Of a stretch of DNA of 64,000 nucleotides, positions 9,701 to 57,439 are shown in pieces. The position numbers were made by a program, and so were the translations under genes. The DNA comes from Nageia nagi (taxonomy: Eukaryota > Plantae > Pinophyta). Location: the NCBI GenBank assembly GCA_050084985.1, contig JBITNC010000001.1:201872001-201936000 (forward strand), read 5' to 3'. The notes below the pieces were generated by a model that did not search any database, had not been told where the DNA came from, and was given only the letters and a program-made list of their open reading frames with translations. Position 1 is the stretch's first letter; the number at the start of each line of letters is the position of its first letter.

Positions 9701-11474
9701 ACATGTACCACAATTCTGGAGATCTCAATCACAAATGATGCTGCAACATGAAAGCCCTCTCTTAAAACGCTACCTGGAGGCCAACATTGGAGGAATAGAT
9801 GACCAGCTCATCATTCCAAGGCCGAACAAACCTATTTTTGCACCGAAGGGAGGTGAGGATTCGAAAACAAGGGTACCTGGTCCATTAAAGTTGAACAAGC
9901 ATCACAAGGATTACAACATGCTTCATCTTGAAGTTAGGCGAGATATCACCTTCAGCAGTTACTTGGAGTTGTTAGGGTTGAAGGGAGGCTCATATGGCCA
10001 ACGTCAATTAGGAGGACAGTGGGAAGGAAAGAAGGACTTGTAGCATAAGATCAAGAAGATGCAAGTACCCACATTCGATGGAAAGAAGATGACAGCAAGG
10101 GCTTGCGTGCACCAATTGCAGACATATTATGTGTTGAACCCTAGCATGGTAAAGGTAGCCGCCATCAAAATTGCATCATTGCATCTTGAGAGTGATGCGT
10201 TGGAGTGCTGGCGTCATGGCATGGTGAGTCAAAGGTATGCACACATCACCACGTTTGAGGAGTTCACTAGGAGGCTGGTGAAGAGATTCGACTAGAAGAA
10301 GGAGAACGATTATTGCCAGGATTTGAATTCACTGAGGCAGACGGAGATGGTGGATGAGTTCGTGGCTGAGTTTTAGAAGCTTGCAGTAATGATCCACCAT
10401 ATTCTGGAGGAGAGGGTGACATTCCTCTTCATCAAGGATTTGTCCAAGCCGCTGAGGGGGATGGTCAACGTTTCATACCCTAGGACCTTGAACAATGCTA
10501 TTTGGGGTGCATATGACTTAGAGCCTATTTGTATATTTTTCTTTCCTTGCTCAAAACATGCACAAGACTTGGACGAAATGGCGTTACTTGTTCCCGCCTG
10601 AAAAGACTAGTTACCCGAAGTGCTCACATGGAATATGGTCTTGATGGCTCAGAAGTCAGAGATGCATGTTGTTAACTATATACAAGGGAAACTCGCATCA
10701 CGATTCCTTTCCTTAATGAGGAAAAACTGCAAATGTGAACGAAAGAGAAGAAAGATCACAAATGCAGGCGAAGAACACAGGGATAAATGCAAGGGAATGC
10801 GAGGAAAGGAAAGGATCTATGAGGGCATCACCAGGGATACAGTGTCTCGATAGGTCATCTTCAGATTCATTAAGGTCGATACACTCACTATCAAGCCGAG
10901 CAATAAATAGCAAATATGCTCAAATAATTGCCAGACAAGAGCAGGAAGCTATAGGGTGTTTATAGAAGATTCAATGGAGAGGGTAAAGATGGAGTGAGGG
11001 CGTAAGTGCAGTAACCTAACCGAATGATATAAAGACAAGCTGTAAGCCTCAGAATATATCTACTTGCGTGCAAACTATGCAAAAAAAGGAATCAGACTCT
11101 TTCACAAAATAAACAATATGCAATTCATAGAGAGAACCATTCAGATATGCATAATCCCACAAATGATGTTCCTCATAGTACGAGTTTATGATTTTATTCC
11201 TCTAAACAAAACACATTTGTATTGATTTCCAATAACAGAATATGCATAGAACCCCTTATGCAACAATCTTCTATGCAATGGAACGTGGATCTTATGATAT
11301 GCAAAAGCTCAAAATGATTATACGAATGAACTCAATAGCCACAATCTCAAGATGCAGGAACTCCAATATATGATGCTTTCATTATGTGCAAAGTCCCATG
11401 CAAACATAGTACAAGATCATATCAAAAATTCCTCATGCAAAATCCCATATGTCCCCCCCCTACTTTTCTAAATG

Positions 11475-13430
11475 GCCCGAATGGCATCACCTCCCTCTTC
11501 CTCTTCTCTCTGGCTCTTTGACTCTTCTGTAGAGTCTTCAGCCGTACGATCGTGATTTCCATCAGCTTCTTCATAGGAAGAAGAGAAAGAGGGCTCGGAG
11601 CTACTAGGACGTTGTTGTGATGGGGAACTTTCCCTCTTTGCCCAAGAGAACAGGTTGATCTAGAGGGAATCGCTTCCGTGGAGGAGTCACTCCCACAGGC
11701 TGTGTTTATCACCTCGTAAGCACATCTGAAGGGAGAGTACAATACCCAACATCTCTAAGGTCAGTTTCCAACACACTACACTTGCTGGGCCCTAGAAGAG
11801 GCTCTCTCAAGGTCTCTTGCCTTTTTCATACAGAAAGCAAGGGCTTCTTCTTCTTGGGTGAGGACGTTGTGTGGGTAGGATATTTGATCTTCAAAGTAGC
11901 CTCCATAGGTCGAGGTTTGATCGTTCGAAGTTTCTGAGGGGGCTTTTCTATTCGAAGGGGAACCTTCTTCATTTTCAAATGAGCTGTGATACGTGCAATT
12001 TCCCCTTCGTTCTGCACATTACTATACCTTTCTTCATCTCCCAATGATTTGTTAGGAAATGGAATGGGCCAATGAAAAGTAGAGTCATAGAAATGGACAA
12101 TCATCCCCTTAGGATCATAGTTCCTTGCAGCAGCTTCCCTGAAGAAGTTATATTCCTGTAACTCCTCTCGCATGTGTGTTGCCTCCACCCAAGTCTGGCA
12201 CACATATCCAGATATAGAAATAGGCAAGTTGATAGTGGCGTTTTTCTTCTTCCATACCTTCTCCTTCAAGCACAAGAGTTGCCTAGCAAACTCCATGAGG
12301 ACCAACCTATCACTGGCATACATGGGCAAGAGCATGGGTTGCTCCTCTGAACCATAAACTCTAATGTAGGTGAAGTCAGCGTCTTGCAGAAAAAAGTCTA
12401 CATGCACGTAAACAGCCTAGATGGTAGCATTAGAGATCTTCTTCACCACGGACTCTCCCTTGATATCCTTGTAGATATCATATTCCAAGGCATCAGTCCT
12501 TTCATAAAAATACTCAAATTTACTCTGGCACCACCATTTCTAGTATGCCCTCCACACGAGAGTGTTCTTCTCTCCCAAGTATCTCTCATCATCCAGCTCC
12601 TTAGATCTAACCTTGCCATGCAGTAACAGGTATACCAGGTAAGAGTTCATGTACAATCTCTTTGAGGAGCCAAACAAAGACAACTGCTAGTGCAAGGCAT
12701 CACTGATAACCCCTACCCACCTAATGGACCTCCCTGAACTGATTGCAACCATAAATCCTATGAACTCCCTTCAGTACTTGGCATCATTCACTTGGCCGGT
12801 TACTTTTGATAACAAGGTGATCAATTTTGCCACCACTGGTAGAATTTCTTCTCTTCGTGCACTGGTCAACCTTTGCCCTTGAAGGTTCTGAAATTCTTCA
12901 AGCAACTAGGGCCTAACATAGTCCCCAAGCTGGGAAGTGGAATCATGAAACTCCTCCGAATGCACCAATGTATAGTCATCCTTGTAACGTTTCCAGCCAA
13001 AAGTTGCTTCAATGCTAGCAAGGGTGAAGTCCATGATTACATTACCTTCCATATCCCGTAGCACTCTCTTGCTGAAATCACACCTTGCCACTTCACTACA
13101 CAAGTCGGGAAAAGGTATTGCAAATGGTATCATGGCGGCATTGAACAAGCCGCACGTGTGGATAAGTTCTGCAGACATGTCCTCCTTGCTGAGAGAGGTT
13201 GTAGAGGCCAAGGTCATAATTGGGTCCAAGTCACCCCAATCAGTGTCACCAACAAAGATATATTTCCCCTTGAATTTGGCCTCGGGAAGCTTTGGTTTGC
13301 CTTTCGGCTGAAATTCTATCAAATTCTCCCCCAAAAATGGAGTCATCTGGCTTTTAGTCACATGCCTCTCGAATAATTGGCTTTGGGTCTTTCTAGCCTT
13401 CAAAGTGGGTACTTTGGTGCTTGAAGCCCT
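11475..13430 (-). pseudogene. LTR-borne ORF of unknown function, copy 1 (N-terminal half only)
   Basis: Motifs VGDTDWGDLDP, PFPDLCSEV and YIRVYGSEEQPMLLPMYASDRLVLMEFARQL are shared with copies 2, 3 and 5. Contains stops/frameshifts. Confidence 0.8.
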
Positions 13431-13583
13431 AGAGGATGCTACCCTAATCCTTCCTCAATTTGAATTGGTTAACTAGTCCAAGCGCACAGTATGAATGAGT
13501 GCAAAAGTATAGCCAGGAATGAATGTAACTAGGCCTGGTGATACTTAGTCAATTTCCCGAACTAAATTCTTCATTCCAAAGTT

Positions 13584-15065
13584 GGTCGCATGGTTTTGAA
13601 TAAGTGCCTAAAGCATGTATGAAAAATGATGTGACTAGGTTCAAGGGTGGATCTGAAATGCCTTAGCCAAAAGAGGCTTACTGGATGTACAACGTCCTTG
13701 TATCTCTCTTCTTGGTCGCATGATCTAAAGTGGGTGCTTGAGCATGTATAAAACATGATGCGACTAGGTTCAGGGGTGGATCTGAAATGAATGCAATGTA
13801 TTTTAATGTCCTTTCCTTGGTCACATGTTTTTGGATGGATGCTTAAGCATGCTTAGAAAATGATGCGACTAAGAAGAGGGATGCAAATGAGAGATGAAAT
13901 GCTCAAAAGGGGGTGATATTTATAGGTTTGCTCTTTGGCCAGGTGTTACTTTCTTACCAGCTCGCTAAAAGGTCCAATAGGAGGCTTACAAACAAGGCCG
14001 CATGGATGGTTGAGGATGCAAAAGGATCAGATAGGAATGGTGCGACTAGGAGGTGGGACCAAGGGACTTAGTCAATTTCCAACACATTAGAGTTCTTAAC
14101 TCCCTTGTTGCATCCTTTTAGATGGGTGCTCAAAGCACAAGCTTAAATCCTTGCGCCTAGTCTCTGGCACACTTCCCAAGGTATAAATCTTTAATCAAAA
14201 CTTGAAAGATGTGGAGGCTGTCCTTGGTCGCACGTCCAAGAAGGGGTGGTTTTCTCCTATCTCCCTATGCTCTGGCCCTCCTTCAATTTTGCAAACTGAA
14301 ATGAAGGGGGTGACTTCCCTTTTATAGCTTTCAAGGTAAGACACGTGTCACCATGAGATAGGCATAGGTTGAGGTCCAGTGCATGGGGTTCAACTTGTCA
14401 CTAACATCCAACACTTAGCCCTTTTCCTTTTATTTTTGTTGGTCGTATGATTTAGGACGAGTTCAAAATAACTCACCTCCATCCTTGCGACGAGCCTCGA
14501 AGCTCCGAAATTTAGCAAAGTGTCCTTCAAGATGGTCGCACCCTTTGGGAGGAGTGCAAAAGGACTCGCTCTAGTACATGCAACGGCCTTTGAGGTTCCA
14601 AAAATACACTAAGCATGAAATTCCTGGTCGTATGGTTTCTGAAGAGTGCAAAAGGACTCACTCCAATGCATGGGACATCCTTCAAAATGATGCTAAGTTT
14701 GAAACATTGGTCGCATGTTTCCTGAAGAGTGTAAAAGGACTCACTCCAATGCATGCAACAACCTTCAAAATGATGCTAAGGCTGAAAACTGGTCGCATGT
14801 TTCCTGAAGAGCATAAAAGGACTCACTCCAATGCATGCGACATCCTTCAAAATGATGCTAAGGCTGAAACACTGGTCGCATGTTTCCTGAAAAGCGTAAA
14901 AGGACTCACTCCAATGCATGCGACATCCTTCAAAATGATGTTAAGGCTGAAACATTGGTCACATGTTTCCTGAAGAGTGCAAAAGGACTCACTCCAATGC
15001 ATGTGACAACCTTCAAAATGATGCTAAGGCTGAAAAAAAGGACTCCCTCAAAAACATGCGACAGC
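13584..15065. repeat. Array of ~50-bp quasi-palindromes; tandem ~83-bp period from ~14625 to ~15040
   Basis: GGTCGCATG..GAGTG(C/T)AAAAGGACTC..CATGCGAC units start at ~14626, 14709, 14791, 14874 and 14957, with dispersed copies from 13584. Confidence 0.9.
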
Positions 15066-18000
15066 CTGAAAACATGTCTTTTTCCTGCATTTTTCGACAT
15101 GATGACAGACAAGATGCAAGTTGGGTGAAATGTAAAAGGGAAGGCCCTCATAAGCCTTCTAAAGTGCATGATGTAAATGACAAAGACAATGCTGCACGGA
15201 CGCATGATTGAAAGGAGGTGCAAAAGCACTCTGTGAAAAACATGAGACAGGAGAAAAGTACTTGAGAAATGACCCTACTGCTGTGAAAATGCAAACTTTA
15301 CATATTTCCAACATCATCCGAAAGGTATGCATCTTATTGGTGAGATTTCATGCAATCTTTTCTTCCTTTATGTTTCCTGAGGGTCCTTAAAATGCGAAAA
15401 ATTTTGGGGTGGTGTTGTGTAGGCACAACAGAGCCTACCGTGAAATCCCTTAGGGGAGGACCGGTCAACAAGGCACCACCAAATTAAAGGATGTTGGAAG
15501 GGCCTAGCAAGGCCAAGGTACCCCCCATGCCTAAACCGAATCAGTTGGATGCAGCTACCAGGAAGAAACTGAGACAAGAGGGCAAGTGCTTTTATTGCAA
15601 GAAAACTTGGGAGCCCGAACACCGTTGCTTGGGTGAGGGGCAAGTGCACTTCATTGAGGTGTATTCTGAGGAGAGTTCGGAGGAATCGGAGCTGGACTTG
15701 AACGAGGGATTGGATGACTCACGGCTGCTGCGTGCGAAGGGCACGTTAGGGAGCATGGTGGCTTCACTTCATGGGGTGAAGTTTTTGACATTGAAGCTGA
15801 TTGGGGAAGCTTGCGGTCAGGATGTTGTGGTGATGATAGATCCGGGATTTAAAGACCAAGGGTTTTGAAGGCTTCCGAGTTTCCAATGCTAATGGGAAGT
15901 TCACATTGGTGGATCGGATTGTAGAAAGGCTTGGAGTCAGATTGCAGGGCTGTGTGGTCAGGGAGGACTTCTACCTCTATCCACTCAAAGGGCATCCACA
16001 TATCATCCTTGGAGTGCAATGGCTGTTCGAGTTGGGTGACATTCACACCAACTACCAAAACCTTACTATAAGGTTTGAGATAGATGGGGTGGAACACAAA
16101 CTACAGGGATTGCGAGATGAGGACACCTAGAAGACGAATAACCGACTGGAGTTGATAGAGTTGGATGAGGGGGCAAAATAGGTAGCTACTCTGGGGGTTC
16201 AATGAGGTGAGGACCCCACGCTGAGCACAGACATGACTGGAATGGCCACGGTGGGCAACCTAGGAGGTTGGGACCCCACGTTGGATAAGGAGTTATCGAG
16301 AGCAGTCACATTGAGAGTCCAAGGAGGAGGGGACCCTATGTTGGACCTTGGGGAGGTCGGAATGTCAGTGCTTAGGGTCCAAGAGTTTTGGAACACCACG
16401 TTGAGGCTTGGGGAAGCCATCATTGCTGAGGACAGTTCAAACCCTAAGATGGGTCTAGGCCCCACACATTTTACACTGACAATCGTCATTCACAGCTCAT
16501 TGCAAATACAGTTCAGTGTGGAGGTGAGTGCAATTCTATGGCTGAAGAGACTTTTCCACGAACACATACTGAGGGAAGAATGCCATGGCCGATTCTGGAG
16601 AATGCAGGTCATTGAGGTATTCAGCGCTGAGGACTCAATACAGCCAGAGGGGCTAGGAGTCACGTTGGTTTTCAAAAGAGGTGTGGTGCAGCTGAAGGCA
16701 CCAAAAGATTCTTGGTAGACAATCCATAGTTGTCTCTTACCTTTGCTTGAGGGCAAGAAATTCGAGAGGGGAGACTTTGTGGCGTCCACTTTGTATTCTA
16801 GTATGTGTTCATGTTCATGTTGTGATAGTGTAACTCAAGCAAGAGCTTATGGTCTGCGAAACCCACTATGAGCCCAGCAATGGGACGTCTCTCCTTGAGC
16901 AGTGATGTTGTGTAATGTAATGGGTTATCCCGAATTGTGGGAATCCCAATGTGTTGTGTGTAGTTCAGGGGTGATCCCAGATTGTGGAAATCCTTAGGTA
17001 GATATTTGTCACGTTTGTTCCAAGTGCACAAAGGAGCATGCCAGCATTAGAAGGACCCCACATACCCCACGTTGGCTCAGAAGACCTTACAAACCCCCAC
17101 ATCGGCCCAGGAGGCCATTTGGAGCCTGACATTCTATGACTTAGGTGGGTCACCTAGTCCATCCGGTAGAATTCCAAGGATGAGCTTCTACCTTCAGTGG
17201 TTGCCAAGATTCGAGGAGACTCCTTCGCAGGAGGGGATTTAGATTACTGAGGAAGTTAGTCTAATCCTATTGTGTGTTCGGCTTGTTGAGTGTTTGGAAC
17301 CCTAGATTTGTTGGTCTACCTCCATTGTTTATTCATTATCTCTTATAATCAAAGACAGCTCATTGTGTCCCACATTGTTGTGTTGTTCCATTGTATGTTC
17401 CATGTGTTTGACATACTGGTGTTGGAAGCTTCATACTAGTATCATATTGTTGTGTATACCCATCGTTGGCAATCTTGTGTTGTGCATTATTGTTGTAAGG
17501 TATTCGTAGGGTTTGTAGGGTGTTGGAGAAGCCTTAGGGGTTGACATCAGCATTATGTGATACTTGTTTGGTGTTGTGTGTTGTTCGGGAAGCCAAAGAG
17601 GCCCACGTTGGACTGTTAAAGGGTTTGTGTGCCCTAGAGGGCAATCATTGGGTGTTTGAGGGTTGCAAAAACCCTAGCATATTCTGTTTTTGATTAAGGG
17701 TTATTTTGGATTTGTATACTTTCATATTGCAACGTTGTGGTGTATTTACTCTTTCCCGCATGTTATACCTAGATGTTAACATTGTGAGGTGTTGAATGTT
17801 GATATTTGCTAGTCTTGGCTAGATGTTGGCATTATTGCATTGTTGAAGCTTAATCTGGATTCCCTAGGTCAGACGTTGGAGAATACTTGTCTGTTTTGAG
17901 TTACTTGCACTTGATTTTGTAATTGGGTCTTTATAGTGGTATCAGAGCTTGGATCTGGCCAACCTGTGAAGGAAACTTGCTTTTCACAGCTACTACACCA

Positions 18001-20690
18001 GGTCAAGCATCAGAATGGAGATCGCATCCGTAAGAAAGAGAGGAAAATCTCAACATGAAGAGACCCCTTCTAGAGCCGCCCAAGAGGAAGACCATTGACC
18101 ATGGATGAATAAAGTCCCGAATGAGGATGATACCAATAAGGAGAATGAGGCGACAAGGGGGAGGACCACATTGGCTAGGAGGAGAAGTTCTACTCCAACT
18201 AGGGTGTCCACACCTGAGAGGAGGTTTAATGAGCTCATCTCAGCAATCCACAGCATGATAGGACCCATCACCACCATGCAAAAACAATTAAACATCGTCC
18301 ACAAGCAATTCGAAGGTCAAGATGTGTCGAAGAGGCACATGAGCCCCCCACTTCCTAACCCTGATGAAGAAGAGGAGCTTTGCGAGGAGGATAGGGTAGA
18401 GAGAGAGCCGATTCTGAAGAGATCCCGCAATTTGAGTGATAGAGGATCCACTCACCATAGATCCATGGGTCGTCCAAAACCCACCTTTTTGGGATCACAC
18501 TCTTACAGAGTTCCACAAGGAACTAACCTCTCCTAGGGAGGTTCCTAAAGGAAGATGTTAGGAAGATAGGTGCGCAGCTCATTATCCCCAAGCCATCAAA
18601 GACCTTATTTGCCAAGAAGTCCGTAGTAGAGGCAAAGAACTAGGTTCCTGACCCACTAGAGCTGAATCAGATTTTCAGCAAGTATTCCATGTTGGATCCA
18701 GGGTTGAGAGACGTGAATTTCAACGGCTACCTAGAAATCCTAGGGTTGAAGGGAAGCAGTTCATATGACATGCATACCCAAAGCAACTCGTGGCGAGATA
18801 AGAGGGACCTACAACAGAAGATTAATAAAATGCAAGTGCTGCTATATGATGGCAAGAGGATGACAGCTAGGGGTTGGCTACATCAGCTATAGACCTACTT
18901 CACTTTGAGCCCGAATATGGTAGAGGAGGATGCAATGCACTTTGCATCATTACACTTTGAGGGTGATTCCCTAGAATGGTGGTAGCATGGAGTAATCAGC
19001 CAGGCTTAAAAAAACATCACCTCCTTTAATGAGTTTGCCAAGCGATTGGTAAAGAGATTTGATAGGAAGAGGGAGAATGATTACTTCAGAGAGTTGACAT
19101 CTCTAAGACAACAAGGAGTCATGGATGAATATGTATCTGAGTTTCAGAAGATTGCAATCATGATTCACCACATCCCTAAGAAACGGTTGACATTCCTCTT
19201 CATAGAGGGATCAATGGAGCCACTACAAGGGATGGTGAAGGTATCTTCACCAAGGAGCCTTGACGATGCTATCAAGGCTGGTATATGACTTGAAGCCGAC
19301 CATGAAATCCCTCAAGGAAGGGCAAACGTACAAGGGGCCGACCACTCAGAAGACATTTGCTAAGGAGGGGCCTAGTAGGTTCGAACCATTTCCTCCACCT
19401 CGAACGAACTAGTTGAATGTAGCCACTCGGAGGAAGTTAAGGGAGGAAGGCCAGTGCTTCTACTATAAGAAGACTTGGTAGCAGGGCACTATTGCCAACG
19501 CAAGGGGCAAGTGCATTACATTGAGGTGTTTTCTGATGAGGAGATTGACGATTCAGATTTGGATCTTGGCATGGACATGTTGGCTCAGGAAGCACCCAAG
19601 GCGGAAGGCTCATTGGGGAGTATAATCGCTTCACTCCATGGGGTGAAGAGGTACCTCACATTGAAGGTGGTGGGGCAAGCAGGTGGTTAGGATGTAATGG
19701 TCTTGATTGATCCTGGAGCATCCCACAACTTCATTGATGAAGGATTTGTAGAGAAGAAGAACTTGAAGATTAAGGTATTCGAAGGGTTTAGTGCTTCCAA
19801 TGCCAATTGGAAACTCACCTTAAGGAAACACATAGTTGAGAAGTTTGGGGTGAGGCTACAAAGCTATACAGTGAGGGAGAACTTCTATGTTTATCCTTTG
19901 AAGGGACATCTTAACATCATTCTGGGAGTGCAGTGGTTGTTTGAGTTGGGTGACGTTCACACCAACTACCAAAAATTCACTGAGTTTCGAGTTTGAGGGG
20001 AAGACCCATACATTGTAGGGGATTCAAGATGATTGTCCACAGGTGGACAAAAAATGGCTAGAGGTGGCTGAGTGGTGTCAAAAGGAGGAAGAAGAAAATC
20101 AAGACACGTTGGATATGGAGGAGTCCTAGAACGAGGTTAGGAGCAATGAGGAGCTCCCATACCCCACATTGCATGTTAGGAAGTTGGGATACCTGACATG
20201 GAGATTGGAGGGTCTTCTACACACCACATTGGAGCTTGGGGAGGCTAGGTGCTGCACGTTGAGCTTGGAGGAAACAACGTAACTTGTTTCCTCCTGAAAG
20301 GTCTGGTTACCCCAAGCGCTCACATGGAATATGGTTGTTAGGGCACAGTAGTCAAAGATGCATGTTGTTAACCGTATACAAGGGAAATACAAAGTTGAAG
20401 TTCTTTTCCACAATGAGGAAAGACTACAAATGTGAATACAAGGAATACAAGGAAAGATGAACATATGAAGGTATCACCAGTGGTGTAGTGTCTTGGCAGG
20501 TCATCTTTAAATTCATTAAGGTTAGTGTACTCACTATCAAGCCGGGCAACAAATAGCAATATGCACTCAAATCACTACCAGACAAGGGGAAGAAGTTGTA
20601 GGGTCTTGGTGGAAGACTCGGTGGCAAGGAATAAATGAGGTGAGAGTGTGAGCACAAGAACCTAACCGAATGATATAAAGACAAGCTATA

Positions 20691-21864
20691 TGTGACATCC
20701 CATTTGGACCATTGACAAATTGTGTCATGGTCACTTTGTAATCTAGTGTTTGTTCATTGTCATGTTGTACATGTGTAACTCAAGCAGGAGCTTATGGTCT
20801 GTGGACCCCACTGTGAGTCCAGTAATGGGACGTCTCCCCTTGAGTAGTGTTGTGTTAGTTTGTATTGGGTAATCCCGGATTGTGGGAATCCCTAGATAGG
20901 TATGAGTCTTGCGTAGGCCAAAGTGCATGGAGGAGTATAGGAATGTGGGGAGGGCCCCACATACCCCACGCTGGCTTATGAGGCCACCTAGACCCCACGT
21001 CAGCCTTGAGAGGCCCGTCAAACCCCACATCAGCCTTGAGGGCCTTTATGACCCCCATGTTGACACACTGGGCCCATGGGACCCCCACGTTAGCATACTG
21101 GGCCAATATGACCCCCACGTTGGCATGGTTGACCTGTTGACCCCAACGTTGGAATAGACTTGGCTTGGGATGATAACGAGGTAGGATGGATAGACACATG
21201 ATGCTATATATTGAGGATGGAGCTCCATGATGGGGTTAGCTATTGATTATACTTCTATTACATTGAACCCAATTGGGCTTGCAAGTCTTGGCGATGTCTA
21301 AAGGGGTGACAAGGTTGGGAGCCTGGCACTCTACGACTTAGGTGGGTCATCTAGTCCATCTGATGGTATTCCGAGGGCAAGCTTTTACCTTCAATGGTTA
21401 TCCAGGGATCGAGGAGGCTCCTTCGCAGGAGAGGATTTGGAGTCTGAGGGAGTTGGTCTTTCCTATGGTTTTCGGCTTGTACAAGGGTTTGGAACCCTAG
21501 ATCTATATGTTGAGATCGTCATTGTACTCCATTGTTATTCCATGATATAATATAGCTTGTGTCTCTCTCCATTGTGTTATTCATTGATGTGTATGTGTTG
21601 TCTCTTGTATACTGGTGTTGGAAGCTACATTGTGTTGTGCTCATATCTGTGAGGCATTCGTTGAGGTGCCAAGTGTTACTATGTGCCCTAGAGGGCTGAC
21701 GTCAGGGTGTAGGGATTGCGTGGAGGCCTTAGGAGGCTAACGTTTGCATTGTGGGGTGTTAGGGTGCCCTAAGGGCCCAACATAGGTGTGCTAGCTTCAT
21801 TTGTTGAGGGTTTGAGTCGCATAGTTGGAGTTGTTTGTACTGAGAGTGATTTTAGATCGTCACA
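20691..21864 (+). mobile_element. Solo LTR (B1 family)
   Basis: TGTGACATCCC...CGTCACA; TSD CTATA/CTATG; homologous to 7645-8905. Confidence 0.9.
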
Positions 21865-22722
21865 CTATGAGCCTCATAATACATCCAGTTACATGCAAAC
21901 CATGCAAAGAACAACTCAAACCACTTCAATGAATATTCAATATGCAACTCCAAGAGGTTAAGTTATTCAAATATGCACAATCCCACAAATGATATCCTTC
22001 ACAATATTAACTTTATACTCTCATTCCACAAAAGAAATACATTCATAATGATATTCAATGATAAACATGCATAGAACCCCTTATGCAGCAAACCTCTATG
22101 CAATGGAATGTTAAAGCTTTAGGATGCAACAACTCAAAATCTTACACATGTAAAGGCTGAAAACCAGCATCTCAAAATGCAAGATCCTCAATATGTAATA
22201 CTTCTATTAAATGCAGAGTCTCACATCTACAAATATGCGTAAAATTCTCAACATCATGTAGTACTCCAAATGCAAAATCCCCTTCTAAATGGCCACAATG
22301 GAGTATAAATAGGCCACTAGAAGTGTTGCCCTAAAGGCATCAAATCTGATATGGTGTGCACACACACAACACACATACCGATACAAAATCAGATTGTTCT
22401 CATAAATTGATACAAGTGGAACTTAGAAGTCTGACAAAATCTAAATGCCACTACTAGAATCCATTTAATCTACCTCTAAACTACTCAAAAGCGAATCAGA
22501 TATGCAATAAAGGAGTCCAACATCTAAACTGGCGGGAGCAAAACCTCATCCCTACACCAGTCAAAATCATAAATGAGTTTGACAGATCTGACCTGGAGGG
22601 AGCAAAAACTAATCCCTTCACTAGTCAAATCAAGTAAATAAAGTCTAACATAACAACCACCATCAAATATGCATTAAACAAAAGAACAAATATCGCATAT
22701 GGAATCTGCGAGTGGATCAGAC

Positions 22723-25700
22723 CTAAGCTAAATCTGATCCAATACTGGCGGAGTTCCACTCCTTGGTGGTGAGACCGTATGACTCAATGATCTCCTCCAA
22801 GAATGCCACAATCTTCCGTATGCCCCTGGAAATCATGCAAATGATGCTACCATTCTGCCGAAAGTAGTCTTCTATCTTCTTGGATGTAGCCTACATATGG
22901 TGTCTCCAGATGACCATCTACCTTTCGTGGATGATAGGATGCCTTGCCTTCAACAAGCTGAGGTCATCGATGTCTAGATGCTCCTGTATCAGGATCCAAG
23001 CCTCTACCAATATTGCCTCCTCCTTCATTACATTGTTTTCCTCCCCTTGGAACTTGAGCTAGTAGGCATAGTCGCTCATCTGTTCCTCAACCTCCTTTCT
23101 CAAGGGGATTCTAAGCTACAAGACTGCGTTGCACTTCTCAAGTGCATGACTCAGCCAGTCATGGTGGTAAGTGAACTCGTGGCAGTAGACTAATTTTTCA
23201 AGATTGTTAGTGTAGACATGCTGCAGGTGGGATACGTTGGGGAGATAGCCATTCAACGTGCTAAGGTGCGCTAAGATTTGTGCCTTAAGGTCTCTAATTT
23301 CCAAACTTTCAGTAAGGAGCTTGTAGATTTGAGAAAACAACCTCTCGATAGGCTCCATAATTCCTTTCTTTAGTTGCTCCTTCATCAATTCCCATCCCTC
23401 ATGGAAGGAATTCTGCTTCATCAGATCTAAGGGGGTGGTACTGACCTTCTGGAACTCCTTGATGATCTTCCTGCTAGCCGTGAGTTCCTTTTTCAGCCGC
23501 TTCACCTCCTTTTTGGCTTTGTAGCCTTCTTGTTCCATGATTGCAGCATTTTGAGTGACTATATGTTTTCGGGCTATCAATCCTAACTTTACTGGCATCT
23601 TAAATGTCTCGATGTTACAATCTTCTGCTCCCTAAGGATGTTTCTTCTTTGAATAACAATGGCTGCTGGAGATTTCCTTTCGAGAGGTGGAAAAAAATGT
23701 ATCAACCCTCTGAATCTTTTCACCATCCAAAAGCTCCTCTTCCTCATCTTCAGAGTGCAAATCCTGGTCTATATCTTCATCATGAGCCATACTCATGCTT
23801 AGGGCTCTAAGGCAAGCATCCAAGTCAAGATCTAGATGCTTGGTTGCTGGTTGGGGAGGAAGCCTTTGTACCAATAATCGTCCTTTGTTGATCTTCTTGA
23901 CTTCTTGTACCGGAGTGGTTTGAACAATGGTGATCTCCTTACCTTGGTGCTCTTCCTATCTTCTCTTCTTTTTCTGTTCTTTGGTCTCTCCTTCATCCTC
24001 TCCATCTCCTCCATCACCATCTATAGATATGCCTTTGTTCTGTGGTTGGGGGAACCTTTCATGGCTCGTTCTCTTTGTAGAGGATTTTTATGAAGAAGGG
24101 GACCTTTTCCTATGCTCGGCAGGAGAGAGTTTGGAGTCACCCATCTCTCTGGCATACTTTACTCTAGTGACTTGCACCTCATCATCATCATAGGTCCCAA
24201 CATCCACAATCACATCATCTCCTTGGAGATTCTCGATCTTTGTCTCGTCAAGTGCAGAGGCACCTACGACTACGTCTTCTTGCTCAGGAAAAACAGTAGC
24301 ATCATCATCTTTATCATCTTCCTCTTCTTCTTCTCTTCCACCATAGCTCTCTGACTCTTCTCTGAAGTCTCCTATTGTACGGTTAGGCTGTTCATCAGTC
24401 TCTTCATCGAAAGAGGAAGTGGAGCGTTCAGAACTAGAACTAGAACTAGGTTGCAACGGGGGAATTTCTCTTTGCATCCAGGAGAGCAAGTGAATCTAGA
24501 AGGGACCGCTTCTGTGGGCGAATCACTGGCACAAGCCTCATCCACTACATCATCCAACACATATGAAGGGATAGTGCAATAGCCAACGTCCTTGAGATCA
24601 GCCATCACTATGCTGCTCTTGCTAGGGCTTGGAATGTGCTCCCTCAGAGCTTCTTACCTCTTTCCAACGAGAAGCAAGGGTACCTTAACTAGCAGAGGTG
24701 CAGCACGAATAGGAGGAGGGGATGACCTAATCTTGAGAGGAACCTCATTGGGTCTAGATATAGTAGTTCGGGGTTTCTGAGATGGTTTTTCTGCTTAGAG
24801 GGGAGCCTTTTTCTTTCTCAGGAGAGCATCTACCTTTGCAGTCTCCTCCTCATCTTACATGTTTTGGTATTTCTCCACACTCTCCAAAGATTTATGCTGA
24901 AAAGCGATAGGCTTGTGGAATGCAATGTTGTAAAAATGTGAAATTATGCCTCTAGGATAGTAGTTTCTCATTCTTGCCTCCTTGGAGAAAACATATTGCT
25001 CTAGCTCCTTCATACTGCCTGCTTCAACCCACGTCTAATATACATACCTTGCAATTGAGATAGGCAAGTTGATGGTCACGTTCTTCTTCTTCCAGACTTT
25101 CTCTTTCAAGAACAAAAGTTGCCTGGCAAATTCCATGAGGATAAGCCTATCACTAGCATATCTCGGTAGGAGTAAGGGTCGCTCTTTCGAGCCATAGACT
25201 CTAATAAATGTATGGTTAGCATCCTGCAGAAAGAAATTTGCATGTACACTGATGGCTTGGATGAATGCATCAAAAATTCTCTTCACCATGGACTTCCCTT
25301 TGATATCTTTATAGATATCATACTCCCGGTGATCATTCCTCTCACAGAAATGCTCGAACTTGTTCTGGTACCACCACTTTGGATAAGCCCACCACACGGG
25401 GGTGCCCTTTTGTCCTAAATATCTTTCATCAATAAGCTCCTTAGACCTGACCTTGCCATGCAACAACAAATATACAAGATAGGAATTCATGTAGAATTTC
25501 TTCAAGGAGCCAAAATAAGCTAACTAGTGGCATAGGGCATCACTGATCACCCCACTCCATCAGATAGCTCTCCTCGAACTAATGACTGCAATAAAACCTG
25601 TAACTCCTTCCTATACTTAGCATCATTTTTCTGACCAATGACCTTGGCCAAAAGAGTGATCAGTTTGGCCACGACAGGCAAGAACTCTTCCCTACGAGCA

Positions 25701-26238
25701 CTAATCAACCTCTGGCCCTGAAGATTCTAGTAATCTTCCAATAACCATGGCCAAATGTAGTCCCTATGTCGGACCGTGAAATCATGGAACTCTTCAAAAT
25801 ATGCCAATGTGTAATCGTCCCCATAACTTTTCCAGCCAAAGGCTGCTTCAATTCCAGCAAGGGAGAAGTCCATAATTACATTTCCCTCAATGTCTCGTAG
25901 GACTCTCTTGTCGTATTTACATCTCCTGGCTACCTCATAGCAAAAATCAAGAAAAGAAACTACAAAAGGCATCGTAATCGCATTGAACAATCCACAGGTG
26001 TGGATAAGCTCCTTTGACAAGTCTTCCTTACTAATGGAGGTAGTGGAGGCTAAAGTCTAGATGGGATCCAAGTTTTCCCAATCTGTATCACCAACAAAGA
26101 TATATCCCCCCTTAAATTTGGCTTCAAGGAGCTCTGGTCTTTCCCTCTTAAAACTCAATCAAGCTCTCTTTTGAAAGTTGGGCCCTACCCTTGAATTTTC
26201 CTGGCTCTTGATGGAGGTGGTTTGATATTGGAAGCCAT
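22723..26238 (-). pseudogene. LTR-borne ORF, copy 2 (~1,170 codons, disrupted)
   Basis: Runs from ATG 26238 to TAG 22723. Conserved N-terminal domain (FYMNSYLVYLLLHG; FIRVYGSKERPLLLPRYASDRLILMEFARQL), D/E- and K/R-rich linker, and a coiled-coil-like C-terminus ending SIGSDLA*. Confidence 0.8.
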
Positions 26239-26479
26239 GCAAGAATATCTGGAAATGCCCTCAAGAGAACTAAAGGACGAGTCTGGATGCTATGAAGCGT
26301 GCAGCAAGAAAGAACCAAACGTGCAAGTCAGGGCTGCAGGATGCCCAACACACTGAATGAAAGTTGCCTTCCTTTTATATGAGATGCATGGAGGGTGAAT
26401 GTATGGCAGAATGCATGCCTGCCACTTGTCTTCTCCTCTCAACTCCTGGCATCTCACACTTGACCAATTTCACCTTGTA

Positions 26480-27890
26480 ACGCTGGGAGCACAATTTTGG
26501 ATGAATGTTTTAGCACTTCCTGAAAAACATGCAACTGGGGTCTTGGGTCACTTAGTCAAATTTCGGGGTATAATTCTTCACCTCACACCTGGGAGCATGG
26601 ATTCGGGTGAGTGAAAAAGCATGCACTAGAAATGGTGCGACTGGAGAGTAAGGTGAAAATCTTAGATGAAGTGGTAAAAATGACTAAGGGGGTGGCTTGG
26701 TATTTATAACCTTTCGTGCTGCCACATGTCACCTCTGGGTTGGTCAAATTAAGGGTCAAATAGTAGAGCTAAAACAGAGGACGCATGGTTTAAGACAGGT
26801 GCAAAAGCATGTGTCAAAAAGCATGCGACTGTGAGCCTAGGACTTAGTCAAATTTCAAATCATGATAGGGCTCAATTCTTATTTGCAACGTTTAGAAAGG
26901 GTGCAAAAGCATGCACCTTAAACCTTGCACCTGGCCCTTTCTCTTAAATTTCAAACACTTAGCCAATTTCAATCCCAGGCCAAAACGTCTAGGACTGGGC
27001 ACATGACTTGGGAGGAGTGCTTTTTCATGTACAGGAAATGATGCAACTAGGGTCAAGCACACCTCCTGAGACCAGAAATTTCAAAAATAGACAAAAATGA
27101 CTAAAAAATGCAAATTTGACACACGCACATTTTGGAGGACGTGGTTTTTCTCCCTTAGCTCCACGCAGTGCTCCAAACAATTTTGCAAACAAAATGACTG
27201 AGGCTTTCTTTCTTTTTATAGCCTTCTCAAATAGGACAAGTGTCATCATATGATTAGTGCAAGAGAGGGTAAAATGCATGCACTTCCACTTGTCAACAAT
27301 CCGAGCCCAACACTTAATCAATTTTCATCTCATGAATTTGGTCACATGGTTTTGGGTGGGTGCAAAAGCACTCATTTGAAAACATGCGATTGGCCTTGAT
27401 TGTCTCAAAAATGGCTTAAGTCCCCTTTTTTTTGGTTGCATGGTTTGAGTTGGGTGCAAAAGCACTCACTTGAAAACGTGCAACTAGGTCTTGAAAGTTC
27501 CAAAATGGCTAAGTACAAGTCTCTTCTTCCCTGGACGCATGGATCTGGTTGGGTGCAAAAGCATTCACTTGAAAACATGCGACTAGCTTCTTCCAGAAGA
27601 ATGCTAAGTATGAGAGCCTCCAATTCTGGTCGCACCATTTTGGGTGGGTGCAAAAGCGCACACTTGAAAACATGCAACTAGCTGAAAACGCGTTTTTGCC
27701 TTTGAACTCTGACCAGAATGACTTCAAACATGAAATGCAATGAGGGAGGGATGAACTTCCGAAGTATGAGGGACCCTGAAAGTCTAGTTTTAAGACTGAA
27801 AAATGTAAGTAATGAGTATGAAAATGCAGCATGAGGTTGGTCGCACCGTTTAGGGGACATGCAAAAGCATGTCCCTCCAAAAATGCGACT
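26480..27890. repeat. Palindrome array of copy 2
   Basis: GCATG-N34-CATGC units with a GGGTGC-AAAA-GCACTC core; ~97-bp period at 27340-27680. Confidence 0.85.
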
Positions 27891-28065
27891 GAGGAAAAAT
27901 ACATGTTTCTGACTTGAGTAGACCATGAATGTAAAAGTTTAACATGTTTCCTAAAGCTAGACCAAGATGCATACATTCCCTTAGTGTTTACTTCCATGCA
28001 TTATTCTTTTATTTTCGAGGGTCCTCCAAATGCAAAATTTTGGGGATTGTTGTGTAGGCACAACA

Positions 28066-29908: not shown

Positions 29909-31584
29909 CTGAACAATTTTTCCAATCATAATGTTACTAATAATTTTCATAATAATATAGAGAATAAACTGACTAAATATCATTACATTGAAACTCCGAG
30001 TAAGGTAAAATCATTGTCAAATTCTTGTAAATGTAACATAACAAGAACCTTTTGAGTAGATATACTAATATAGGTGAAAGCTATAATACAAATTGTAAAT
30101 TAGGAAAGTTGTTATAACATTAAACTGACAGAAAAAAAAAAGTAAACCTCCTCACATGAACATGTCCCTCTCCTTCGTTTTGCAACAAATGCAACTTATA
30201 TTACACCAGAAAACATAAGTTACATTATGAAAATTCAAAATTGTCATATCATGGGTGCAATAAAATGCAGAATACAAACCTTTGCCTGAAGGGGCAAAAA
30301 GGCTACATCCTTCAAAAAGCTGTAAAATCTGGCTTTAACATGCATAGCCAGATTCCTTCTATAAGTACTCAATTTTCCTAAGATAAATGATGTAGCTTGA
30401 AAGGATACTATTGGTGGCTTTTTCTTTCCTACCTTGCTAAAAGGCAAATGAACTTTCAAGGCTTGTAGAAAGACACCAACACCTGAGTGATAGGGCATAA
30501 CCCCTACCCGCTATGAGGACTAGTTACCTCAAAGGTATAGTGATGGGTGTGCAAGAGGTTGGTCAAGTGACCGGTTGAGATGTTTCAAGCTATCTCCAAC
30601 TCAAATATTATTTGTTAACCAAGGACTCGAAGGGTCCCTGTTTCCAGAAATTGTTGTTTCTCAAAAGAAAAGGAAAATGTGGTTGTGAAAGCCACACAAA
30701 AAAATGGAAAATAAAAGAAAAAGGATAGATTAGACAATGGTATATGAGTCGGGCACAAGTGCATATGATCTCACCGACTAGTGCAAGTAATGGGATCTAC
30801 TTCTTTTGGGCTTCATGCAAGTTCCACACACTCCTTATCTTTATCACTAGTCAACTACAAGAATGAACTAGTGAAAAGAGCGTGAAGCTGTAGACAAGAG
30901 TTGTTGTAGAGCAGATTGCGGGTGAATTATCAATGAGGGAGTGAAGTTCTTGCGCTAAGCAACATGAAAGGAGTCATTCCAGACAACACAAGTCTAATAT
31001 GCAAACCATGGACTATTGCACATCATATCTCACTCAATAATCACTTCGAATAGTATTCAACAAATTCTCTCATCCACCTTAACACGAGGTTTATGAAATG
31101 AACCAAGTAAACTTGAGCAACACAAGGGAGCAATGGCATTCAACCAAAAGAATTCAACACATGTTCATGATTCCATCAAAGAGAGCATTCACTATTCAAT
31201 TACTTGGAGTAATACCACATTCACAAATGGAGAAAACTTTTCAATTGGAAGTAAAAATTAAGTCTCTCACAAGTACAAAAATATCTAATCCCCTACAAAT
31301 GATCCCAAATGGGCTATAAATAGTTTTCCTGGCAACCTAAAATGTTACCCTAACCCTAATTTCAAAATGCGAGAAATAACAAATGGACAAATCAAAACCT
31401 ACCACATGTCATTACAAAATGTCATCCAAGCTTGTGGGAGCAAATTCTCATCCATCACAAGCTTGGGAATTGAATAACAAATATAATAAAAGTATTTTAT
31501 AAGAATAAGTGTCTATTCTAGGAAATAACACCACAAGCTATGAAAATTGTGACTAAGGTTCATGTGGACCCAAAACCTAAACGC

Positions 31585-34500
31585 ATCACTCGAAATCTTC
31601 GTCCAAGAACTTTGTCGTGAGTTCCAACCCATGCAGCATCTTTGACAAGTTCGGCCCATTCCTAGCAATGCAGCGTCCAACCTTGTCTACCATCCATTAC
31701 ATATCATTCTTCCAAGCCTAAGCTCTAAGCAAGTGCTTCAGGTGACTCCCAGTCTGGTAGGTGTTCACATCATTGGTCATGATCAGGCTGTGAAGGAAGT
31801 GTCTCACTTCCACCACTACCAGGTTTTTATCTCTAATGGTGGCATCATCATCAATGAACTTGACTTGGAACTCCATTTGCTCAAGGCTAGTGTTAGCCTT
31901 GTCATCGAGTTTCTCGACCTCCTTCTGCACCTCTTGGAAACATATGGCTATCTGATTGACGACCCCCAAGTAGAATGTAATGTTCTAAAATCACCCTCAG
32001 CAAAAACAACTCAACACTAAGGCAACACAAACCCTCCAATACTCTCACGTGGACCTCTTAGGCCTTCCGGGCTATGCACCACACAAAAAAGGATCTCACA
32101 ATGCTGATGTTAGCCCCTAGGGCTTCTCCAGCACTCTGCAAACCCCACAGATGCCTTACAGCAACAATGGACAATACAGCAATACCAACAATGGGTTCAC
32201 ACAACAATATGAAGCCAGAACAAGCTTCCAACACCAGTATATCACAACGCATGCATACAATGGAACAACACAATGATAAGAGGCACAATGATATGTATTT
32301 TATTATGATATGGTAATGGAGTACAATGGAGATTACAACTCTCAAATCTAGGGTCCAAAACCCTCCACAACCCGAACATGCAATGGGAAAGACTAACTCA
32401 CTCAGTATCCGAATCCTCTCCTGTGAAGGAGTCTCCTCGAACCCTAGCGACCAATGAAGGTAGAAGCTCGTCCTCAGAATACCACTGGATGGGCTAGGTG
32501 ACCCACCTAAGCCGTAGAATGTCAGGCTCCCAACCCTGCCACTCCTCTAGACCCCATCTAGAAATAATGCTCAGCACCGCCAAGACTTGAATGCCCAACC
32601 GGGTTCGGTATAGAAGAAGTATAATCAATAGCTAACCTCATCATGGAGCTCCATCCTCAATATATAGCCTCTCGTATCCATTTTTCATGCCTCGTTATCA
32701 TCCCAAGCCAAGTCTAATCCAACGTTGGGTTCAACAGGTCAACCATGCCAACGTGGGGGTCATATTGACCCAGTATGCTAACATGGGGGTCCAATGGGCC
32801 CAGTATGTCAACGTGGGGGTCATAAAGGCCCTCAAGGCTGATGTGGGGTCTACTCCTAAGCTGACATGGGGGTCCAAGTAGCCTCATAAGCCAACGTGGG
32901 GTATGTGGGGCCCTCCCAACGTTGGTATGCTCCTCTGTGCACTCTGGACTATACAAGACTCATGCCAATCTAGGGATTCCCACAATTTGAGATAACCCAT
33001 TACAATTAACACAACACTACTCAAGGAGAGATGTCCCATTACTGGGCTCACAGTGGGGTCCACAGACCATAAGCTCCTGCTTGAGTTACACAAGTACAAC
33101 ATGACTATGAACAAACACTAGAATACAAAGTGACCATGACACATGTTATCATTGGTCCAAATGGGACATCACATAGAACCAGTATTCTTCACAAAACTTC
33201 ACATCTTCTGGCCTTCGATCCTGTGTCATCTCGAATGTCATGAACATGGGCCTTCGGGAATCCAAAATCCTAAGAAGGCTGGCTCTCTCCACCACAATGT
33301 CCTTCAGCTTCTGCTCTTCAAATGCTACCCTCTGCAGTGCACCAATGAATTGTTGTACCACTACCAAGACCTCATCAATTTCTTCTTGTTTTACTACAAT
33401 CATGCCCTCTTTAAGTGGTTTTATCTTTCGAAGCTCCTCCATGGGCACCTTAGCTGACTCTAATTCTCTAGTCAATTTCTTCTATGCAACTAACTCCTTC
33501 CTGAGGCTTTTAATCTCCTTTTCTTTCATCATCCCATCTTTGGTAATTGCCTCAGTGTTGGAGATGATTGCATGTTTTCGACCAGCCACACCAATAGGAC
33601 TTGTGTTGATAATCTGGTTTACCTGCCATAGGTCTTCAGGTCGTTGGGGATTCTCTTTGTCCGTGATTATAGTCTTGATGTGAATCGCATTTTTGGCCAA
33701 ATGCACATAAGTCTGGGTCTTAATCGAGCGAGTGGAGATTTCTCCAATCTGATCATTCTCTTCTCTCACTCCAAACTCTTCCCTAACATCCATGTTAAAC
33801 ACATCTAGATATTCCTCCATATTAACTCCCCACTCATTTGTAGGTGATGGTTGTTATGTCTCAACAACTGCTTCCTGAACGGTGGTGGTACTTTTCCTGG
33901 CCCTTTTCAAGGGTCTTGCTTCTTCTTCATCGAGCTCATCAGAGGTCTTTGTCGTCCATGATTGTGAAGTCCTCTTCAACTGGGCTTTCCTCTGTACTGT
34001 CTTTGAAGCTGGTCCCTTACCCTTCTCTGTGGATGGTTCAGAAGCTGGGGGATTCTAGACCACCTTCACTATCTCCAAGGATCCATCTTCTTGCTATGTA
34101 TCTGGGATGTCGTGGTGTTGCACGGCATTCGCCCCCTATTCACCTTCTGACTCTCCTACTTCTCCCTCCTCTTGACTTTCATCAAGTTTGTACATGGGAC
34201 TGGATGATGAAGATCTAGATGGTGGAATGACTGGTGACGGGTCTACAACTACTCCTCTAGGTGGTCTGGATGGTGGGGATGAATCCTTCTCTCTATCCCT
34301 AAAACACTTCACTACCTTGTCAGTGGCCACATGCTTTAGCTCTCTCACGTCATGCTCATCAATGGTGTCCCTTACTTGTTGTACTACCAGTTCTACTGGG
34401 TTCTTACCAGGCATTGACGCATACTATCCAACTGGTGCTTCAACTATGGGAGGAAACTGGGTGACCCTAGAAATGGACTCCTGAGGTCTTCTTCCTTTTT

Positions 34501-35982: not shown

Positions 35983-36327
35983 GGTGTTCAAGCTTGCAAC
36001 AAAATCTCTCAAGGGTGATGCGAGGGTTTCCAAGTGGTGAAGGCACCCCACGTTGGATTGGTTTGCCTCCCAAATGCTTGCACAAGCGCTAGGATGAAGT
36101 ATGATGGAATCCAAACTCGAAAATCTACTATTTCCTGTTATTTGAGAAAATGAGGTCCCTAGGCTTCCATTTATAGCCAAAACTAGCTTCCAACAAACCC
36201 TAGTTGGTTGGATCAAGGAGGGGAATTCATCTCAGCCATCCACTTGAATCACCTCGGGATGTGTGCCTACGCCAAATTTCATGGTCAGCCAAGGCTAAAC
36301 GTGGGGGTTTCAAAGCTCTTTCTGGCT

Positions 36328-57323: not shown

Positions 57324-57439
57324 TGCCCTCAATGGAGGTGCTTTGATGCCCAAAGCCATGCAAGGATGTCACTTATCTCCTTCTCCTTTCAAATCCTGAC
57401 GTCTCACACTTGACCAGTCTCAGGTTGTAATCCTAGGCG

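What the first reader, a model, noticed from the sequence alone, without database searches (positions are those of the whole stretch)
10526..28065. Giant (~6-7 kb) LTR-like units carrying their own ~1,100-aa gene and no gag/pol
Seen: five copies (10526-15430, 20270-28065, ~30242-37570, ~53330-59138, 59150-63674) carry the same ORF family. Where intact, the minus-strand layout is TGTTG terminus, palindrome array, TATA-like site, long ORF, second TATA-like site (22304, 31315, 53949) and a T-rich R/U5-like tail. Copy 1 sits in gag with a 5-bp TSD (GAGCC) and an LTR-type CA end, and no PBS, PPT, gag or pol lies between its ends. Known: plant Gypsy accessory ORFs (Ogre, Retand, Athila) normally lie in the internal region, while ORFs within U3 are known from retroviruses (MMTV sag, HIV nef). 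Inference: these are solo LTRs whose U3 holds a complete transcription unit, so every solo LTR leaves a gene behind.
Basis: partly seen in the sequence, partly recalled or inferred. Interest (0 to 1): 0.85.

Follow-up and report, generated by a model that had tools for sequence, protein, structure and literature searches.

The report
Giant retrotransposon ends carrying own gene
This stretch of gymnosperm-like DNA holds five decayed copies of a 5-7 kb mobile unit built around one conserved gene of about 1,100 codons; the units are likely the left-over ends (solo LTRs) of a retrotransposon, and the gene may encode a DNA-binding protein that would shield the element from silencing.

Summary
All five copies carry one ORF family (about 1,060-1,170 codons, broken in every copy) under strong purifying selection (pN 0.13-0.20, pS 0.60-0.82). 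Copies 1 and 3 are whole units with 5-bp target-site duplications and TGTTG...CAACA-type ends. They show no terminal direct repeat, PBS seed, gag or pol. Two metagenome contigs repeat the layout. Named protein relatives are from Taxus and Ginkgo. Corrections: copy 3 starts at 30409; copy 1 lacks the 3' half of the ORF and the distal TATA; copies 2 and 4 have cut ends; copy 5 shows no ends; the distal TATA is canonical on the plus strand, although a CATT spacing favours the minus reading. The solo-LTR reading is likely but unproven: no gag-pol element flanked by two such units could be fetched, and 0 of 8 fully read termini abut a PBS or PPT. New lead: the best of 48,161 PDB chains for the predicted N-domain is the transposon anti-silencing protein VANC21 (Z 4.8, 225 of 271 residues, rmsd 5.5; weak). 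The palindrome arrays change motif with the protein subfamily, as VANC targets do.

The parts
10526..15430 (-). Copy 1, whole unit (4.9 kb, 3' half of ORF and distal TATA deleted), inserted in a chromovirus-type gag
   Evidence: TSD GAGCC at 10521-10525 and 15431-15435; gag PF03732; uninterrupted gag contigs in 4 of 4 runs
11490..13454 (-). Copy 1 ORF remnant, N-terminal conserved domain (about 12000-13331) with in-frame stops
   Evidence: AlphaFold2 mean pLDDT 80
14624..15035 (.). Copy 1 tandem array, 83-bp unit with GTCGCATG...CATGCGAC-type inverted motifs
13919..14327 (-). Two TATA boxes upstream of the copy 1 ORF, each with CATT at +24
15413..15430 (.). Terminal 18-bp hairpin (TGTTGTG-4-CACAACA), inferred U3 end
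   Evidence: identical at 28048-28065
20264..28065 (-). Copy 2, 6.6 kb net; left end cut about 40 bp inside the terminus, so no TSD test is possible
22723..26238 (-). Copy 2 ORF, ATG to TAG span 1,172 codons, broken by stops and frameshifts: conserved N-domain, acidic low-complexity middle, helical C-domain
22304..22311 (.). Distal TATA-like site (TATAAATA on plus; TATTTATA with CATT at +21 on minus), candidate LTR promoter
   Evidence: same site at 31315 and 53949 and in L001, L002
27337..27586 (.). Copy 2 tandem array, 99-bp unit
20691..21864 (+). Unrelated ordinary solo LTR nested in copy 2
   Evidence: TSD CTATA/CTATG
30409..37570 (-). Copy 3, whole unit of a second subfamily (6.0 kb net), lying between exon-like stretches of a host gene
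   Evidence: TSD GATAC/AATAC and terminal hairpin 37550-37570
31590..35982 (-). Copy 3 ORF, about 1,060 codons net of a nested solo LTR (31976-33173, TSD TAGAA); the stop position is approximate
36250..37400 (.). Copy 3 degenerate palindrome array with a different motif (AAAAGAC, GGYRCATG)
53405..59138 (-). Copy 4, both ends cut; ORF C-part 54299-55295 kept, most of the 5' ORF deleted; nested solo LTR 55351-57323; array 58274-58811
60792..63440 (-). Copy 5, diverged ORF N-domain split by a nested LTR piece (about 61405-62620); termini not seen

Best explanation
The units are likely solo LTRs of a gymnosperm LTR-retrotransposon lineage whose 6-7 kb LTR carries, probably in U3, a whole accessory gene that is predicted to encode a VANC/PMD-like DNA-binding protein. 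Shown by sequence: TG...CA-type ends, 5-bp TSDs, arrays, TATA boxes, an ORF under purifying selection, and a second promoter-like site about 900 bp from the far end. Inferred: read on the minus strand, the LTR runs terminus, palindrome array, two or three TATA promoters, ORF, LTR promoter, about 0.9 kb of R/U5. An internal 3' accessory ORF would have been drawn into U3 when plus-strand priming moved upstream of it, and recombination between the two very long LTRs would then have removed gag-pol and left one copy. Inferred function (about 45%): the protein would bind the motif array next to its own promoter and keep the LTR unsilenced, with protein and motif changing together between subfamilies.
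For: TSDs in 2 of 2 copies with both ends. TGTTG left end in relatives from 5 runs and 2 contigs. The same terminal hairpin at 4 of 4 right ends in two subfamilies. No convincing direct repeat between unit ends: local scores 56/33/37 against shuffle maxima 44/35/50; the one excess is a gappy low-complexity alignment. Distal site 897, 906 and 932 bp from the left end in c2, c3 and L002. CATT starts at +21/22 in 5 of 5 distal sites read on minus and in 0 of 5 read on plus, matching +22/+23 in the LTRs of the two PBS-oriented host elements; background 0.04 per 5-nt window (four of the five sites are close kin). Four ordinary solo LTRs with TSD matches of 5/5, 5/5, 4/5 and 3/5 show that solo formation is common here. 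Solo:intact ratio is reported to correlate with LTR length (PMC7251063, passages). pN 0.13-0.20 against pS 0.60-0.82 in 6 within-subfamily pairs, shifted-frame controls dN/dS 0.88-0.90. VANC21-DNA (9lnk_A) ranks first of 48,161 chains for both models: Z 4.7, rmsd 5.3, 210 aligned; Z 4.8, rmsd 5.5, 225 of 271 aligned; all other listed rows align at most 99 and 70 residues. Array motif switches with subfamily: GTCGCA 14/6/13 in c1/c2/c4 against 1/0 in c3/L002; AAAAGAC[AT] 1/0/2 against 11/10.
Against: No pair of units around gag-pol was seen. 0 of 4 U5-side and 0 of 4 U3-side termini read in full abut a PBS or PPT. Only 1 of 5 single-contig flanks at the left end starts with TGG, and it matches no tRNA I recall. 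The distal TATA is canonical on the opposite strand. The four solo LTRs of the other family have CCATG rather than CATT at that spacing (0 of 4). Summed contig depth is several-fold higher over the left 0.9 kb than over the ORF, which would also fit a shorter shared LTR. The VANC Z-scores are below the level (8) that the tool calls reliable, identity is 8%, and the two models are not independent. Only two subfamilies support the motif co-variation.
Confidence: 0.55

Rival explanations
1. The unit is a complete, non-autonomous element of its own: a promoter-gene-array cassette with 5-bp inverted ends that is moved in trans by an integrase-type enzyme and never flanks gag-pol.
For: 0 of 8 termini read in full abut a PBS or PPT. 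Pooled left-end flanks agree only 0.52-0.65, so flanks are diverse. A VANC-like gene plus arrays is the make-up of VANDAL DNA transposons (PMC5735166, passages). The terminal hairpin is unusual.
Against: A 5-bp TSD with TG...CA ends is the usual LTR-integrase signature (93.4% 5-bp TSDs in PMC6317226, passages). An outward-facing promoter-like site 0.9 kb from the end fits an LTR. Solo LTRs dominate this window anyway. One flank at depth 28.4 starts with TGG right after CA. I recall no plant DNA transposon with these ends.
Confidence: 0.2
2. The ORF and arrays are the ordinary pol-to-3'LTR region of a Retand/Grande/Tat-like element, the true LTR is only about 1 kb, and the units are deletion remnants.
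For: Published accessory ORFs and tandem arrays lie in the internal region (PMC7264820, PMC11963269, PMC6317226). Depth is higher over the left 0.9 kb. The distal TATA is canonical on plus, and a plus-strand gag-like piece lies left of copy 4 (E 0.029).
Against: Random deletions would not give TSD-matched TG...CA ends in 2 of 2 copies or the same hairpin end in 4 of 4 across two subfamilies. No second LTR copy is present within any unit. Purine runs followed by TG inside the units number only 1-2 per copy and precede no repeat.
Confidence: 0.12
3. The unit is a solo LTR read on the plus strand: about 0.9 kb of U3, the canonical TATAAATA as LTR promoter, and the ORF antisense inside a very long R/U5.
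For: TATAAATAG is conserved on plus in 5 of 5 copies that keep the site. Antisense ORFs with their own promoter are known in Grande (PMC7264820).
Against: CATT spacing fits only the minus reading. The single TGG-starting flank is at the left end. It needs a strong-stop DNA of more than 5 kb (inference).
Confidence: 0.1

Closest known systems
Non-chromovirus Ty3/gypsy elements with extra ORFs (Ogre, Retand, Athila, gymnosperm TatII/TatIII; Neumann et al. 2019, PMC6317226)
   Same: 5-bp TSD, very long LTRs (reported up to about 5 kb), tandem arrays, and large fast-evolving accessory ORFs.
   Different: There the extra ORFs are classed as 5' or 3' of the polyprotein within the element. Here the ORF lies between the two TSD-bound ends of a unit with no internal repeat. 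No PF10536, PF04195 or PF03078 hit. No RT was seen, so no lineage can be assigned.
Grande gene23 / Retand TRP28 antisense ORFs (PMC7264820, PMC11963269)
   Same: Accessory gene with its own promoter next to tandem repeats; proposed nuclear or DNA-binding role.
   Different: Internal and antisense to gag-pol, reported from angiosperms; the TRP28 (Transposase_28) family was not hit here.
VANC anti-silencing proteins of VANDAL transposons (PMC5735166; PDB 9lnk) and the structurally related PMD proteins (10.1101/2024.09.27.615353; PMC5418596)
   Same: Best structural match over the whole N-domain (weak Z). Short motifs accumulate in tandem arrays and differ between subfamilies. Conserved domain plus variable region.
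   Different: 8% identity and no DUF1985 or PMD HMM hit. The carrier has LTR-type ends and a 5-bp TSD and holds no transposase. Binding and demethylation are untested.
Retroviral U3 genes, MMTV sag and HIV nef (recalled, from no call)
   Same: A gene inside or overlapping U3 that would persist in a solo LTR.
   Different: Those are a few hundred codons in LTRs of about 1 kb; this is about 1,100 codons in 6-7 kb, with no sequence relation.

Membership tests
Solo LTR of an LTR retrotransposon | TG...CA inverted termini | tested here: met
   Right ends CAACA in c1, c2, c3, L002; left ends TATT (decayed) in c1 and c3, TGTTG in L001, L002 and 5 runs
Solo LTR of an LTR retrotransposon | 4-6 bp target-site duplication at both ends | tested here: met
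   2 of 2 testable copies: GAGCC/GAGCC and GATAC/AATAC
Solo LTR of an LTR retrotransposon | No internal PBS, gag, pol or second LTR | tested here: met
Solo LTR of an LTR retrotransposon | U3-R-U5 order with one LTR promoter | tested here: inconclusive
   Distal site fixed at 897-932 bp; CATT spacing favours minus, canonical TATA favours plus; no transcript data
Solo LTR of an LTR retrotransposon | The same sequence occurs as paired LTRs around PBS-gag-pol-PPT | tested here: inconclusive
   0 of 8 termini read in full; 1 of 5 single-contig flanks starts with TGG; no whole genome held
Tat/Ogre/Athila/Retand lineages | RT/RH/INT phylogeny, aRH position and PBS type | not testable with these tools
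   No linked pol was recovered
Retand/Grande aORF-3R | ORF between pol and the 3' LTR with a TRP28 (PF04195) domain | tested here: not met
   No pol or LTR pair in the units; 0 of 141 family members hit PF04195 among listed families
PMD (PF10536) / VANC (DUF1985) proteins | Profile-HMM match to PF10536 or DUF1985 | tested here: not met
   No such hit; profile search of PDB sequences gave nothing below E 0.2
PMD (PF10536) / VANC (DUF1985) proteins | Shared fold with VANC21 | tested here: inconclusive
   Rank 1 of 48,161 twice: Z 4.7/4.8, rmsd 5.3/5.5, 210/225 aligned
PMD (PF10536) / VANC (DUF1985) proteins | Target motifs in tandem arrays that vary with the protein subfamily | tested here: inconclusive
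   Motif switch between two subfamilies; n = 2, binding not shown
PMD (PF10536) / VANC (DUF1985) proteins | Sequence-specific DNA binding and loss of silencing | not testable with these tools
   Needs EMSA, DAP-seq or methylome data
env-like ORFs (SIRE, Athila) | Transmembrane segment | tested here: not met
   Highest 19-residue hydropathy 1.49 (c1 N-domain), 0.95 (P0016), 1.21 (c2 C-part)
DDE transposase / integrase (autonomous DNA transposon) | RNase H-like catalytic domain in the ORF | tested here: inconclusive
   N-domain model is mostly helical; no Pfam hit; the C-domain was not folded

The most novel reading that the evidence does not exclude
A gymnosperm-wide retrotransposon lineage has moved a complete anti-silencing cassette (VANC/PMD-fold gene, its own promoters and its own binding-site array) into the LTR itself. 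Every solo LTR then remains a self-contained switch that can keep itself and all kin LTRs unsilenced in trans after gag-pol is gone. Its 6-7 kb LTRs fall at or beyond the 6,000-bp limit used in the REXdb survey, so the lineage would have been missed.
Probability: 0.28. Interest if true: 0.85.

Novelty: new variant of a known kind. Interest (0 to 1): 0.62.

Why it matters
If these are LTRs, they exceed the roughly 5 kb quoted as the upper range for plant LTRs, and they put a large selected gene where the papers read here describe none. LTR removal by recombination would then spread a gene instead of erasing the element's coding capacity. The units make up about 38% of this window and relatives occur in Taxus and Ginkgo, so the family may be a sizeable, under-annotated part of giant gymnosperm genomes. 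The VANC-like fold with subfamily-specific arrays makes a standing question testable: what retrotransposon accessory ORFs do, and how elements stay active in heavily methylated genomes.

Tried and rejected
No whole genome is held, so the pair-around-gag-pol test could not be run directly. Word-based protein searches: none with the single query, none among 855-2,440-aa proteins (weak evidence against a gag-pol fusion), 32 unnamed or Taxus hits without Pfam domains. ESM Atlas: no usable hit. Foldseek against PDB and BFVD: nothing at E <= 0.001; no transposase or integrase fold was listed, which does not exclude one. Viral contigs: 0 loci in 6 scans. The one GTDB match, L003, has no other similarity to the window and is chance. 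Rfam: 0 matches in 10400-37700. No RNA holder was listed. Earlier scan findings: none. The first alignment had copy 1 in a wrong frame and was discarded. The X5 flank motif is no more frequent in the window than chance, 7 against a mean of 5.0. The left part of copy 5 (59143-59700) does not match the copy 2 C-domain significantly, E 0.09-0.25 (one search used a wrong frame). Host-gene exon pieces gave no Pfam hit. Rejected: copy 3 starting at 30242; CTTGG as a copy 2 TSD (the left flank is not the continuation of the right flank); an env-like role. In one search I scored only the 8 minus-strand TATA boxes upstream of the ORFs and left out 5 others listed.
Full report
Setting. The window is repeat-rich plant DNA with nested Gypsy elements and no whole genome on file. 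Of 17 protein clusters looked up with the listing of cluster members (20 queries less repeats not removed: 10, 10), the only ones naming an organism are Taxus chinensis (2 clusters, one with 7 near-identical members on different contigs) and Ginkgo biloba (1). A gymnosperm source is therefore inferred.

Observation. tblastx links all five copies through one minus-strand ORF. Copy 1 (10526-15430) is bounded by GAGCC on both sides inside a gag, and contigs from 4 of 4 runs join that gag without the insert (these are paralogous gag copies, not proven empty alleles). Copy 3 starts at 30409, where its left end aligns with that of copy 1 and a second TSD appears (GATAC/AATAC). Copy 2 lacks about 40 bp of its left end. 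Copy 4 lacks both ends and most of the 5' ORF. Copy 5 shows only the ORF. Net lengths are 4.9, 6.6 and 6.0 kb. The copy 2 ORF spans 1,172 codons from ATG to TAG and copy 3 about 1,060; all are broken. One scan of metagenome contigs returned 2 loci. L001 holds a copy-2-type unit with an intact TGTTG left end inserted in a copy-3-type ORF. L002 holds the right end of a copy-3-type unit 31 bp from the left end of a copy-2-type unit. The layout is thus reproducible outside this window.

The gene is real. Within subfamilies pN is 0.13-0.20 and pS 0.60-0.82 in 6 of 6 pairs, in both the N- and the C-domain; dN/dS is 0.12 in the two such pairs that are not saturated, against 0.88-0.90 in shifted-frame controls. 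A full HMMER scan found 139 relatives, mostly fragments. Pfam gives no family for the copies or for 141 aligned members beyond scattered weak hits. The protein has a conserved N-domain of about 440 residues, an acidic low-complexity middle and a helical C-domain, with no transmembrane stretch.

Is the unit an LTR? For: TG...CA-type ends; TSDs in 2 of 2 testable copies; no convincing direct repeat between the ends; an identical kind of terminal hairpin at 4 of 4 right ends; a TATA-like site 897-932 bp from the left end in both subfamilies; and four ordinary solo LTRs in the same window. Against or open: none of 8 termini read in full abuts a PBS or PPT. In five runs the left end is preceded by diverse flanks, with pooled agreement 0.52-0.65. 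One of 5 single-contig flanks begins with TGG directly after the terminal CA and has depth 28.4 in a run where interior contigs reach 60-90. That is what a shared PBS junction would look like, but it matches no tRNA I recall, was not seen in the other runs, and contig depth is no copy number. Depth over the left 0.9 kb is several-fold that over the ORF; stronger conservation of R/U5 or a short-LTR sister family could each explain it.

Direction. Read on the minus strand it has CATT at +21/22 in 5 of 5 copies (0 of 5 on plus). The LTRs of the two host elements oriented by a tRNA-Met PBS have it at +22/23, and the 8 TATA boxes upstream of the ORF at +21 to +27. Four solo LTRs of another family have CCATG there instead. 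I take the minus reading, which puts the gene in U3, as more likely but not shown.

What the protein does. AlphaFold2 gave confident, mostly helical models (pLDDT 80 and 77). Foldseek found nothing. The exhaustive aligner ranked VANC21 bound to DNA (9lnk_A) first of 48,161 chains for both models: Z 4.7, rmsd 5.3, 210 aligned, and Z 4.8, rmsd 5.5, 225 of 271 aligned, covering VANC21 314-636, while other listed rows align short helical pieces. The Z is below what the tool calls reliable and the models share most of their alignment, so this is a lead. The VANC idea predates the hit: the literature search on it was sent together with the collection. VANC binds short motifs that accumulate in tandem arrays and differ between related elements (PMC5735166, passages). 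PMD domains are reported as structurally similar to VANC DUF1985 (10.1101/2024.09.27.615353, passages), and PMD-A clades are encoded by Gypsy elements (PMC5418596, passages). Here the array motif switches with the protein subfamily (two subfamilies only). The most likely role is a sequence-specific DNA-binding anti-silencing or activating factor for the element's own LTR (about 45%).

Comparison with print. Reviews place accessory ORFs in the internal region (PMC7264820, parts 1-2 of 3 read; PMC11963269, part 1 of 5 read; PMC6317226, passages and supplementary table 5). PMC6317226 gives LTRs up to about 5 kb and capped its search at 6,000 bp; its element table and FASTA supplement were too large to read and could hold relatives. 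PMC13468544, PMC13477047 and PMC7251063 (passages) add nothing on ORFs inside LTRs. Searches returned no paper whose listing or read passages describes a plant LTR containing a gene or this family. Most subscription papers, for example Steinbauerova 2011, are outside the library. MMTV sag and HIV nef are recalled.

Verdict. A real, multi-copy, gymnosperm mobile unit with a selected gene. Solo LTR with the gene in U3, 0.55; the same with reversed direction, 0.10; stand-alone cassette, 0.20; internal remnant, 0.12. New variant of a known kind, interest 0.62. It would be higher if the paired element and the VANC/PMD link are confirmed.

Noticed in passing
window 7645-17711 and 17118-20260: The two host elements around copies 1 and 2 have LTR, tRNA-Met PBS, gag and protease; the first then runs to its PPT and 3' LTR with no RT, RNase H or integrase, so it looks like a non-autonomous gag-protease element.
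   Followed up: partly
window 44116-50470: Full-length chromovirus-type Gypsy element (gag, RT, RNase H, chromodomain; LTRs 92% alike) lying between two hAT transposase-like fragments.
   Followed up: partly
window 28260-30340 and 38043-38144: Small minus-strand exon-like pieces of a host gene flank copy 3, which therefore seems intronic. The peptides recall an RluA-type RNA pseudouridine synthase (from memory; no Pfam hit on the short pieces).
   Followed up: partly
L001:5514-5720, L002:3994-4050, window 59138: Units of this family sit in or beside each other: one inside another's ORF, two 31 bp apart, and copy 4 abutting copy 5. This may be a targeting preference or only high abundance.
   Followed up: no
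window 10526-10530 flank, run X5: One contig of depth 28.4 continues past the U5-side end with TGG, a possible unusual primer-binding site.
   Followed up: partly
window 52200-53320: Plus-strand gag-like fragment (PF03732, E 0.029) directly left of the cut end of copy 4.
   Followed up: partly
window 59143-60300: Decayed coding-like stretch with a TATA-like site at about 60190 downstream of the copy 5 N-domain; not significantly like the copy 2 C-domain.
   Followed up: partly
window 20691-21864, 31976-33173, 42028-43262, 55351-57323: One ordinary 1.2-kb solo-LTR family with internal 30-bp repeats is inserted in three of the five units.
   Followed up: yes
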